Shown here in pieces: positions 30,001-32,000 of a DNA stretch of 32,000 nucleotides; the stretch's first letter is position 1; every line of letters starts with the position of its first letter. The stretch is from assembly GCA_942493105.1 (NCBI GenBank), contig OW818668.1:90001-122000 (forward strand). The letters are read 5' to 3'. Origin of the DNA: an uncultured Erysipelotrichaceae bacterium (GTDB lineage: Bacteria > Bacillota_I > Bacilli_A > Erysipelotrichales > Erysipelotrichaceae). Made by a program: the position numbers.

Positions 30001-32000
30001 AGTAAGTCACATTAAAGAATATGTAACTTTTGTGTGTGGTGTCAATCGGATCATAATCTGGATCTGAGCAACCAAAGTGATCCTTATAATACTGTACAAC
30101 AGATGTCGCATCTGCCCCTTCAGTTAAAACCCAACCTTGGGAATTCACTAAAGAAACAAGTTGATCATCATAGAGACATTCATAAATACCAGCCCCAACA
30201 CCAGCATTGTTGCTGGTATCGACGTCGATATTCAATTCGAACGTGTCTCCGGTGTAAGGGGTTAGTGCAGTGACTTCAACAAAGCCTCGCCCCGCAGTGA
30301 GCACCAGTACCATAGTCCATAGTACCAGCTTCTTCCAGAATAATTTCATATGCTTTCCTCCTTTATAAAGAAAAATGACCTTCCAATAGCACGAGTGCAA
30401 TTGGCCGGTCATGGTTACTTTGAATAACTTTAGACGCTCAACTTTGTGCCCCACCCTTTCGAAGTGGTTTACCCTTTTACAACGTATTTACCTAATGAAT
30501 GCAACTTCCAGAGCTTTTTTACCCATAAGGGTCATAAAGATTGCTTCCTTACCTATACAGAGTCTCTTTCAACACAAATTGACGAATATTTTCGAAATTT
30601 TTTTAGGTTTATAAAAGAGATTGAAATTTAAATCAATCATAACCTTCAAAGATAACTTAAATATTTAATTGTCCTCTATGTTTTCACATAGTTTTAACTA
30701 TGTAACAACTATATTTTTATTATAGCACCCTAATATTCAGGTGCAAGACAAACAATCACTTATTTAAACATAATTTACTAAAAACAGATATATCAGTAAT
30801 CCCCCAGCTATACTCAATAATGTGTTGTTTTTCCACTGATGGATCACCGCAATCACGATCAAAGATAATAATTCAGTCAACCCATAAGGAGCAGATGTGA
30901 TTTTCACATCTTTTAAGGCATAGATGACCAATAGTCCTAAACTTGCATAAGGTAAACGATCTGCTAAGAAAGATACAACTTTGGGGATGGGCTTATTTTG
31001 AGGGAAGAGAATAAATGGCAAGAATCGAGTTAAGATGGTTGCACATGCCATAGCCAATACTGAAATCAGCAGTTGAAGATCACTCATGATGTTTCTCCTG
31101 AATGTGCCTAAAACCCAAAATCCCTAGTACAATCAGTAACATCGACATCAATAAGAACTGTGTTTTACCAAATACAACGAGTGAAAACAGAGTTGAAAAG
31201 ACACCCAACAACAGGTAAACCCTTCGATCATTATTTTTCCACTGATTAAGAAACATAACAAAAAACAAAGCCGTCAACACAAAATCAAAGCCTTTGATTT
31301 GATCTGGTATAAAAACAGATAACAGGTGCCCCATAAGACAAGCAACTTGCCAATACAGATAACACAAGCCTGTAATCGTTAGATAAAACAAAGAAGGATC
31401 AATGTCTTTTGGAACCTTATTAGCGACATTGATTGAGAAAGCTTCATCTGCCATCGCAAAAATCAAGAATGTTTTACCCTTGAGACCTTTGAATCGATCT
31501 AGCATTGAGATTCCATAAAACAAATGTCGTATATTCACCAAGAGTGCCACTAAGAAAGCCAGAAGCGGATTAAACGTGGATAGCAATAATGGTATCGCAG
31601 CATATTGCATAGCACCCGCAAATACCACAGCACTCATTAAAAAGGTCCATATGATTGAAAATCCTTTATCACTCATCAAGATGCCATAAGCCATTCCCAA
31701 CATCAAATAACCTGCTAATACAGGAAGGGTTAAAGGAAAGGTAATACTTAATGTATGCTTAAGATTTTTCATTGTTTCATCATACTGAATATTCTTTCAT
31801 TATTCAATAAAAAGAAGGAACTTCCCTTCTTTATCAATATTCAGTCATGATGATCGTCAATATTAAATGTTTATTCTTTAAGTTTCGTGATTTCTTGAAT
31901 CAAAATGTCAACTAAAAACAGTTGGGATATTCTAATATTCATCACATTCTTAGCATAATCACTGCTATAAAGCACCAAATCCGAAATATCATGCAATGCA

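What the first reader, a model, noticed from the sequence alone, without database searches (positions are those of the whole stretch)
30367..30484. c-di-GMP-I (GEMM-I) type riboswitch wired as an ON switch in front of the giant surface protein
Seen: the minus-strand leader contains AAAAGGGUAAACC, a GAAA-capped hairpin (CCACUUC-GAAA-GGGUGG), GGCACAAAG, and a hairpin GUCUAAAGUUA-UUCAAAG-UAACCAUGAC. This is followed by CGGCCAAUUGCAC. The 16 nt GACCGGCCAAUUGCAC also form the 5' arm of a roughly 12-bp hairpin followed by AUUUUUCUUU, located 17 nt before the SD. Established: GEMM-I aptamers have exactly this two-hairpin tetraloop/receptor layout. They are known upstream of adhesin, pilus and flagellar genes in Clostridia and the Bacillus cereus group. 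Inference: ligand binding sequesters the terminator's 5' arm. High c-di-GMP would then permit read-through and adhesin synthesis.
Basis: partly seen in the sequence, partly recalled or inferred. Interest (0 to 1): 0.75.

Follow-up and report, generated by a model that had tools for sequence, protein, structure and literature searches.

The report
c-di-GMP ON riboswitch before adhesin gene
This is a genuine but ordinary class I c-di-GMP riboswitch that most likely lets a large surface adhesin be made only when c-di-GMP is high, the same design already shown experimentally in Bacillus thuringiensis.

Summary
Rfam RF01051 (c-di-GMP-I) matches window 30393-30483 (minus strand) over the whole model at 54.1 bits (gathering score 35, E 4e-8). 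No class II hit appears.

The aptamer's 3' strand is also the 5' arm of a stable hairpin (30412-30375, -17.4 kcal/mol, z -4). A U-tract, a Shine-Dalgarno sequence and the ATG at 30349 follow. The gene encodes a 1,374-aa protein with a signal peptide, 12 tandem-95/Big_9 repeats and a C-terminal membrane anchor.

Across 19 distinct related units from uncultured Erysipelotrichaceae, the aptamer structure covaries. 17 of the 19 keep the overlapping terminator. One shared nucleotide covaries with its partner in both folds. This supports a transcriptional ON switch, but no ligand binding or read-through was measured.

The design matches the published Bc2/cap and Bc3-5 riboswitches, so this is a new member of a known kind.

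Additional findings:
- Several relatives carry two such units in tandem.
- The window's upstream leader may be a decayed first unit (moderate support).
- A conserved bipartite block between the two positions is unexplained.

"Giant" overstates the protein's size. The test for c-di-GMP-making enzymes cannot be done on 32 kb.

The parts
30393..30483 (-). c-di-GMP-I (GEMM-I) aptamer. P2 is 30467-30451 with a GAAA tetraloop at 30460-30457. P3 is 30443-30399 with a tetraloop-receptor-like CUAAAG/CAUGA. The G20-equivalent is G30473, the A47-equivalent A30445 and the C92-equivalent C30397.
   Evidence: RF01051 at 54.1 bits, gathering score 35, E 4.3e-8, full model. Structure 96.7% paired in 19 related units against 25-44% for slid controls; no shuffle out of 500 reaches the covariation score.
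30375..30412 (-). Intrinsic terminator hairpin (14 pairs with two internal loops). Its 5' arm, 30412-30396, lies inside the aptamer (P3 3' strand plus the ligand-pairing C).
   Evidence: -17.4 kcal/mol, z -3.96. 8 nt are paired in both folds. An equivalent hairpin is present in 17 of 19 related units.
30365..30374 (-). U-rich tract (UUUUCUUUAU) directly after the hairpin.
   Evidence: Sequence. A U-run follows the hairpin in all 17 related terminators.
30357..30364 (-). Shine-Dalgarno AAAGGAGG, 7 nt before the ATG. It is not part of the terminator.
   Evidence: Sequence. Conserved in relatives.
26225..30349 (-). Regulated gene: a 1,374-aa surface protein with a signal peptide, 12 tandem-95/Big_9/cadherin-like repeats, a C-terminal transmembrane helix and a tail of about 95 aa. 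No LPXTG motif is visible.
   Evidence: Translation. Pfam Big_9 at 1.8e-199 with 12 stretches. NCBIfam tand_rpt_95 at 1.1e-178.
30555..30585 (-). Conserved bipartite block TCGTCA-N16-ACTCNNTAT, of unknown role. It may be an internal promoter or an operator.
   Evidence: 1 hit in the window against 0.04 expected. One hit per locus in 11 related loci, always upstream of the proximal aptamer.
30586..30718 (-). AU-rich leader segment that occupies the slot where relatives carry a first, intact aptamer plus terminator. It is possibly a decayed copy.
   Evidence: Alignment A2. Global alignment against shuffles gives z 3.0-3.8 for the window and 6.4-7.1 for L001 against L004 and L006. No covariance-model or profile hit was found.
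30719..30746 (-). Promoter-like TTGCAC-N16-TATAAT with an extended -10 (TGcTATAAT), just after the azlD stop codon.
   Evidence: Sequence, and conservation in L001, L004, L006 and L073. The consensus scan did not call it because the -35 matches only 3 of 6.

Best explanation
A single class I c-di-GMP riboswitch sits in the 5' leader of a large tandem-95-repeat surface adhesin gene and acts as a transcriptional ON switch. As the leader is transcribed, P2 and P3 of the aptamer fold first. If c-di-GMP binds, the P3 3' strand (GAC..GCCAAUU) and the ligand-pairing C stay locked in the aptamer. The downstream sequence then cannot form the terminator hairpin, and RNA polymerase reads into the adhesin gene. 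Without ligand, the more stable hairpin (30412-30375) displaces P3 and, with its U-tract, ends transcription about 20 nt before the start codon. Shown here: family membership, the overlap of the two folds, their relative energies, and conservation and covariation of both folds in relatives. Inferred: ligand identity, ligand-dependent read-through and the adhesive role of the protein.
For: RF01051 at 54.1 bits (gathering score 35) over the full model. G, A and C occupy the positions equivalent to Vc2 G20, A47 and C92 (alignment; roles from PMC6140456). The hairpin is -17.4 kcal/mol, z -3.96, followed by a U-tract. The terminator fold is -28.8 kcal/mol against -14.7 with the aptamer pairs enforced. 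8 nt are paired in both folds. Transcripts of 91-105 nt fold as the P2 hairpin plus a P3-like helix (one base out of register with the Rfam basal pairs) and flip to the terminator by 110 nt. All syntenic relatives have an RF01051 hit directly upstream of the adhesin. In 19 distinct units, 96.7% of cells are paired and no shuffle out of 500 reaches the covariation score. 17 of 19 units have a hairpin of -12.4 to -20.8 kcal/mol whose 5' arm is the aptamer's 3' strand, followed by a U-run, although the 3' arms differ in sequence. Alignment column 81 pairs A-U (10), G-C (8) or G-U (1) with column 47 in the aptamer. In the terminator, C81 pairs with G in 6 of 6 units and U81 pairs with A (8) or G (1). 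The same mechanism was demonstrated for Bc2/cap (PMC4933901) and described for Bc4 (PMC4759541).
Against: There is no experiment: no binding, termination or expression data. The simple terminator scanner did not call the hairpin. The U-tract is interrupted (UUUUUCUUU). The aptamer sequence folded alone is not unusually stable (z +0.63). P1 is at most 2-3 pairs and was not tested. The 19 units come from closely related genomes and fall into roughly two sequence types, so the covariation reflects few independent events. No GGDEF or EAL gene appears in the window or in 167 kb of related loci, which is uninformative at that scale. A possible internal promoter (30585-30555) and an upstream promoter leave the real transcription start unknown.
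Confidence: 0.82

Rival explanations
1. The aptamer is real, but control is partly or wholly at translation or mRNA stability, for example the U-tract pairing with the Shine-Dalgarno region, rather than by termination alone.
For: The minimum-free-energy fold of the 161-nt leader pairs UUUUCUU with part of the AAGGAGGAAAG region. Vibrio cholerae class I riboswitches do not act through termination (PMC6366702). L021 and L086 have only a weak hairpin (-3.4 to -8.7 kcal/mol).
Against: The Shine-Dalgarno sequence is outside the conserved hairpin. The hairpin plus U-run is conserved in 17 of 19 units, including upstream tandem units that have no Shine-Dalgarno sequence after them. The U-tract to Shine-Dalgarno pairing is weak and absent from the centroid structure.
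Confidence: 0.1
2. The aptamer no longer senses ligand, and the hairpin acts as a constitutive attenuator or simply as a terminator for read-through from the azlCD genes.
For: In C. difficile some predicted c-di-GMP riboswitches are non-functional (PMC6366702). The upstream segment of this same leader may itself be a decayed aptamer. No c-di-GMP enzyme genes were seen in the sequence available.
Against: The score is well above the gathering threshold. The ligand-contact positions are intact. Pairs are maintained by compensatory changes, and the shared nucleotide covaries with both partners. That pattern is not expected for a dead aptamer.
Confidence: 0.05
3. The aptamer senses a different cyclic dinucleotide, for example 3'3'-cGAMP as GEMM-Ib variants do.
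For: One related proximal unit (L073) has A at the G20-equivalent position. That change makes Vc2 bind both c-di-GMP and cGAMP (PMC6140456).
Against: The window has G at that position (G30473), as c-di-GMP-selective aptamers do (PMC6140456).
Confidence: 0.03

Closest known systems
Bc2 riboswitch upstream of cap (collagen adhesion protein), Bacillus thuringiensis BMB171 (PMC4933901)
   Same: A class I c-di-GMP aptamer in the 5' UTR of a surface adhesin gene. An intrinsic terminator lies immediately before the ORF. Ligand binding gives read-through (an ON switch).
   Different: The lineage differs (uncultured Erysipelotrichaceae relatives rather than the B. cereus group). The adhesin family differs (a membrane-anchored tandem-95/Big_9 repeat protein rather than a collagen-binding Cap). 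The element here is untested experimentally.
Bc3-Bc5 triple-tandem c-di-GMP-I riboswitch, B. thuringiensis CT-43 (PMC4759541)
   Same: Each unit is a complete aptamer plus terminator. The terminator is blocked because the ligand-pairing C, P1 and part of P3 are tied up when ligand binds. The tandem arrangement is mirrored by the double units in L004, L006, L010/L075, L073, L085 and L118.
   Different: The window has one intact unit only. A conserved bipartite block lies between the two unit positions in the azlCD-linked loci and may be an internal promoter.
Clostridioides difficile c-di-GMP riboswitches (PMC6366702)
   Same: c-di-GMP raises production of adhesins and type IV pili through riboswitch-controlled termination. 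Here adhesins are controlled, and in L021 and L086 a pilin-like gene is too.
   Different: In C. difficile the ON switches for pilA1 and the adhesins are class II, and the functional class I switches are all OFF. In this clade class I units do the ON job.
Vc2 aptamer, Vibrio cholerae (structural reference; numbering as in PMC6140456)
   Same: P2 with a GAAA tetraloop, P3 with a receptor, and G20, A47 and C92 equivalents all present.
   Different: Vc2 does not act by termination (PMC6366702). P1 here is minimal.

Membership tests
c-di-GMP-I riboswitch (Rfam RF01051, GEMM-I) | Covariance-model score at or above the curated gathering score, over the full model | tested here: met
   54.1 bits against 35, E 4.3e-8, model positions 1-87 of 87.
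c-di-GMP-I riboswitch (Rfam RF01051, GEMM-I) | Two hairpins: P2 capped by a GNRA tetraloop and P3 carrying the receptor | tested here: met
   The GAAA loop and the CUAAAG...CAUGA receptor align to the consensus. P2 and P3 pairs are kept with compensatory changes in 19 units.
c-di-GMP-I riboswitch (Rfam RF01051, GEMM-I) | Ligand-contacting nucleotides equivalent to Vc2 G20, A47 and C92 | tested here: met
   G30473, A30445 and C30397 by the model alignment. Their roles are from PMC6140456.
c-di-GMP-I riboswitch (Rfam RF01051, GEMM-I) | Binds c-di-GMP specifically | not testable with these tools
   Needs in-line probing, ITC or a gel-shift assay.
c-di-GMP-I riboswitch (Rfam RF01051, GEMM-I) | Host makes c-di-GMP (GGDEF, EAL or HD-GYP genes present) | tested here: inconclusive
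   None in the 32-kb window. A crude motif scan of 167 kb of window plus related loci found none. The whole genome was not available.
Transcriptional ON riboswitch (Bc2 / Bc3-5 type) | Intrinsic terminator between the aptamer and the ORF | tested here: met
   Hairpin of -17.4 kcal/mol, z -3.96, plus a U-tract. The consensus scanner missed it.
Transcriptional ON riboswitch (Bc2 / Bc3-5 type) | The terminator arm is the same sequence as an aptamer strand that the ligand-bound fold needs, with no separate anti-terminator | tested here: met
   8 nt are paired in both folds, and the C92-equivalent lies in the terminator's apical stem. The overlap is conserved in 17 of 19 units, and column 81 covaries with both partners.
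Transcriptional ON riboswitch (Bc2 / Bc3-5 type) | Read-through increases with c-di-GMP | not testable with these tools
   Needs single-round transcription assays or reporter fusions.
Tandem riboswitch | Two or more complete aptamers in one leader | tested here: not met
   The window has one hit only, even at E up to 10 and with a clade-specific profile. Relatives L004, L006 and L010 have two.
c-di-GMP-II riboswitch (RF01786) | Covariance-model match | tested here: not met
   Not listed at the gathering threshold or at E up to 10 in 30300-30800.
cGAMP-sensing GEMM-Ib variant | Adenine at the G20-equivalent position | tested here: not met
   The window has G30473. Only the proximal unit of L073 has A.

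The most novel reading that the evidence does not exclude
The window's leader may be the surviving half of an ancestral two-unit c-di-GMP gate. The distal unit (30718-30586) would have decayed in place into an AU-rich pseudo-aptamer that still keeps a GAAA-capped hairpin. A conserved bipartite element (30585-30555) between the units may be an internal promoter or operator that uncouples them. Related genomes would then show intact double units, a half-decayed state and a single unit. One relative (L073) pairs a G20 unit with an A20 unit, which could respond to two different cyclic dinucleotides.
Probability: 0.3. Interest if true: 0.45.

Novelty: new member of a known kind. Interest (0 to 1): 0.3.

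Why it matters
It extends riboswitch-level c-di-GMP control of adhesion to poorly studied, uncultured Erysipelotrichaceae-like bacteria with small genomes. It also shows that in this clade class I aptamers, rather than the class II aptamers used by C. difficile, are wired as ON switches for adhesins and probably pilins. The set of single, double and possibly decaying units in closely related genomes could serve as a small natural series for studying how tandem riboswitches are gained or lost. It does not change what is understood about the riboswitch class.

Tried and rejected
- Exact look-ups of the window's adhesin, of AzlC and of the identical protein P0001 found no contig on record. The source organism could therefore only be placed by its relatives.
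- The genome-wide 17-mer scan returned mostly chance matches, as expected for 596 Gb. These were filtered by requiring the upstream aptamer core.
- A second aptamer in the window was sought with Rfam at E up to 10, with a clade-specific nhmmer profile and with a stringent local alignment (z about 0-1). All were negative. Only a global anchor-to-anchor alignment gave moderate support, so the decayed-unit reading is kept as tentative.
- RNAalifold alone did not predict the basal P3 helix. It was tested explicitly and is supported.
- The bipartite block was compared by eye with sigma-70, ECF, SigD, SigH and sporulation-sigma consensus spacings recalled from memory, and fitted none convincingly. 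A leader-peptide reading was rejected because the small ORF is not conserved between the window and L001 or L002.
- The N- and C-terminal non-repeat parts of the protein gave no significant Pfam match. The best was cohesin at E 0.15.
- A crude GGDEF/EAL/HD-GYP motif scan of 167 kb found nothing and is uninformative.

Full report
**Observation.** Scanning the whole window against Rfam gave exactly one match above a gathering score. It was RF01051, the c-di-GMP-I aptamer, at 30393-30483(-), 54.1 bits against a threshold of 35, E = 4.3e-8, covering model positions 1-87 of 87. A permissive scan of 30300-30800 (E up to 10) listed no class II match and no second class I match. In the model alignment, G30473, A30445 and C30397 occupy the positions of Vc2 G20, A47 and C92. 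According to PMC6140456, G20 and C92 are the bases that read the two guanines of the ligand. P2 carries a GAAA tetraloop, and P3 carries the CUAAAG/CAUGA receptor-like internal loop of the consensus.

**Expression platform.** Directly downstream, AUGACC..CCAAU.GCA-CUCG-UGC.AUUGG..GGUCAU (30412-30375) folds at -17.4 kcal/mol, z = -3.96, with 0 of 200 shuffles as stable. It is followed by UUUUCUUUA. The consensus terminator scanner missed it, probably because of the two internal loops. Its 5' arm lies entirely inside the aptamer.
- Eight nucleotides (GAC and CCAAU) are paired in both folds, and the ligand-pairing C lies in the hairpin's apical GCA/UGC stem.
- For the 118-nt RNA the terminator fold is the minimum-free-energy structure at -28.8 kcal/mol. 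With the aptamer pairs enforced the energy is -14.7 kcal/mol.
- Truncated transcripts of 91-105 nt fold as the P2 hairpin plus a P3-like helix whose basal pairs sit one base out of register with the Rfam model. They switch to the terminator once 110 nt are available.
- The two folds are therefore mutually exclusive, with no separate anti-terminator. Ligand-stabilised P3 must prevent termination, which makes this an ON switch.
- The Shine-Dalgarno sequence AAAGGAGG (30364-30357) and the ATG at 30349 follow. The longest mechanical ORF starts at a GTG inside the aptamer (30454) and is not the real start.

**Regulated gene and context.** The product is 1,374 aa. It has an N-terminal signal peptide and 12 tandem-95/Big_9/cadherin-like repeats (Pfam Big_9 at 1.8e-199, 12 stretches; NCBIfam tand_rpt_95 at 1.1e-178). 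It ends with a C-terminal transmembrane helix and a tail of about 95 aa that has no family match. It is a large surface protein, not a giant one. Upstream on the same strand are azlC and azlD. No GGDEF, EAL or HD-GYP gene lies in the window. The only related hit is the degenerate GGDEF_2 domain of a PucR-type regulator.

**Relatives.** The identical protein is on record from an NCBI contig of 2.03 Mb. Its DNA could not be retrieved.
- Loci encoding the closest homologues (59-80% identity) show the same azlC-azlD-adhesin synteny. All those with upstream sequence carry an RF01051 hit directly before the adhesin.
- A genome-collection scan for the aptamer/terminator junction added further loci. 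After filtering out chance matches, the named genuine records are uncultured Erysipelotrichaceae MAGs and the remainder are unnamed uncultured or metagenome assemblies.
- The window's closest DNA relative is L001, at about 79% identity. The source is therefore most likely an uncultured member of that group.

**Comparative test.** Nineteen distinct units were aligned (A1).
- On the Rfam structure, 96.7% of cells are standard pairs, against 25-44% when partners are slid by 1-3 columns. Six pairs show changes on both sides. No shuffle out of 500 reaches the observed covariation score.
- Seventeen of the 19 units have a hairpin of -12.4 to -20.8 kcal/mol whose 5' arm is the aptamer's AUGACCGGYCAAUUGCA. 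Each is followed by a U-run, although the 3' arms differ in sequence and register.
- Alignment column 81, the Y, pairs with column 47 in P3 as A-U (10), G-C (8) or G-U (1). In the terminator, C81 pairs with G in 6 of 6 units, and U81 pairs with A (8) or G (1).
- A single nucleotide that covaries with two different partners is what selection on two alternative folds predicts.
- Caveat: the units fall into roughly two sequence types from related genomes, so the number of independent substitutions is small.

**Comparison with known systems.** The design matches Bc2 upstream of cap in B. thuringiensis. There, c-di-GMP-dependent read-through of a terminator immediately before an adhesin ORF was shown in vitro and in vivo (PMC4933901). 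It also matches the Bc3-5 units, where the terminator is described as blocked because the ligand-pairing C, P1 and part of P3 become unavailable (PMC4759541). It differs from C. difficile, where the functional class I switches are all OFF and class II switches turn on pili and adhesins (PMC6366702). A literature search turned up no description of these Erysipelotrichaceae elements. The finding is therefore a new member of a known kind.

**Beyond the finding.**
- Several relatives (L004, L006, L010/L075, L073, L085, L118) carry two complete units in tandem, each with its own overlapping terminator.
- In the window and L001, the slot of the first unit lies between a conserved TGnTATAAT promoter-like site and a conserved bipartite block. 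It holds AU-rich sequence of nearly the same length (133-144 nt against 143-147 nt).
- That sequence has no covariance-model or profile hit in the window and no significant stringent local similarity. Global anchor-to-anchor alignment does exceed dinucleotide shuffles. L001 gives z = 6.4-7.1 against L004 and L006 (0 of 300) and 2.8 against L073 (7 of 300). The window gives z = 3.0-3.8 (1-4 of 300).
- A GAAA-capped hairpin survives in the P2 position, with a C-G to G-C swap between the window and L001. I read this as moderate support for in-place decay of a distal unit.
- The bipartite block TCGTCA-N16-ACTCNNTAT (30585-30555) occurs once per locus in 11 loci, with a fixed spacer length and a variable distance to the aptamer. 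It behaves like a DNA-level promoter or operator, and its role is unexplained.

**Verdict.** The aptamer is real (confidence about 0.97). The transcriptional ON mechanism is the best-supported reading (0.82) but is inferred.

Noticed in passing
L004 2688-2776 and 2872-2954; L006 2590-2679 and 2811-2893; L010 2724-2813 and 2870-2961; also L073, L085, L118: Relatives carry two complete c-di-GMP-I units in tandem before the adhesin gene. Each unit has its own overlapping terminator, so each is ON-type.
   Followed up: yes
window 30586-30718 (minus strand): An AU-rich leader segment (GC 0.20) fills the slot where tandem relatives hold the first aptamer, with similar length. It keeps a GAAA-capped hairpin, CUAUGU-GAAA-ACAUAG. 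It is possibly a decayed aptamer. Support is moderate (z 3.0-3.8 against shuffles), with no covariance-model or profile hit.
   Followed up: partly
window 30555-30585 (minus strand); one copy each in L001-L004, L006-L009, L073, L087, L119: A conserved bipartite block TCGTCA-N16-ACTCNNTAT has a fixed spacer length but unconserved spacer sequence. It lies 31-72 nt upstream of the proximal aptamer. It does not fit sigma-70 spacing. It may be an alternative-sigma promoter or an operator.
   Followed up: partly
L073 about 3751-3835 (proximal unit): This unit has A instead of G at the position equivalent to Vc2 G20. In Vc2 that change gives binding of both c-di-GMP and cGAMP (PMC6140456). It sits in tandem with an upstream G20 unit.
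   Followed up: no
L021 (minus strand, unit at reverse-complement 910-980) and L086 (minus strand, 306-376): The same aptamer type precedes a ~140-aa protein with a type IV prepilin N-terminus (KLGFTFVEV followed by a hydrophobic helix). The hairpin here is weak (-3.4 to -8.7 kcal/mol) and no clear Shine-Dalgarno sequence is visible, so the expression platform may differ.
   Followed up: partly
window 30454: The longest mechanical ORF for the adhesin starts at a GTG inside the aptamer (1,409 aa). The start with a Shine-Dalgarno sequence is the ATG at 30349 (1,374 aa).
   Followed up: yes
window 26225-26620 (C-terminus of the adhesin) and 29930-30349 (N-terminus): The protein ends in a transmembrane helix plus a tail of about 95 aa that matches no family, and it has no LPXTG motif. 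The N-terminal ~140 aa give only a sub-threshold cohesin match (E 0.15).
   Followed up: partly
window 808-9419 (minus strand): There is a TRAP transporter (DctPQM), an AllG / CoA-ligase-like / AllH set (oxamate carbamoyltransferase-type genes) and a PucR-family regulator. Together these suggest a purine or allantoin catabolism cluster.
   Followed up: no
window 14331-15620 and 16219-19384 (minus strand): A second predicted surface protein combines a transglutaminase core with Ig-like and Rib domains. Next to it are MBOAT and FkbH-like genes. No riboswitch was detected there.
   Followed up: no
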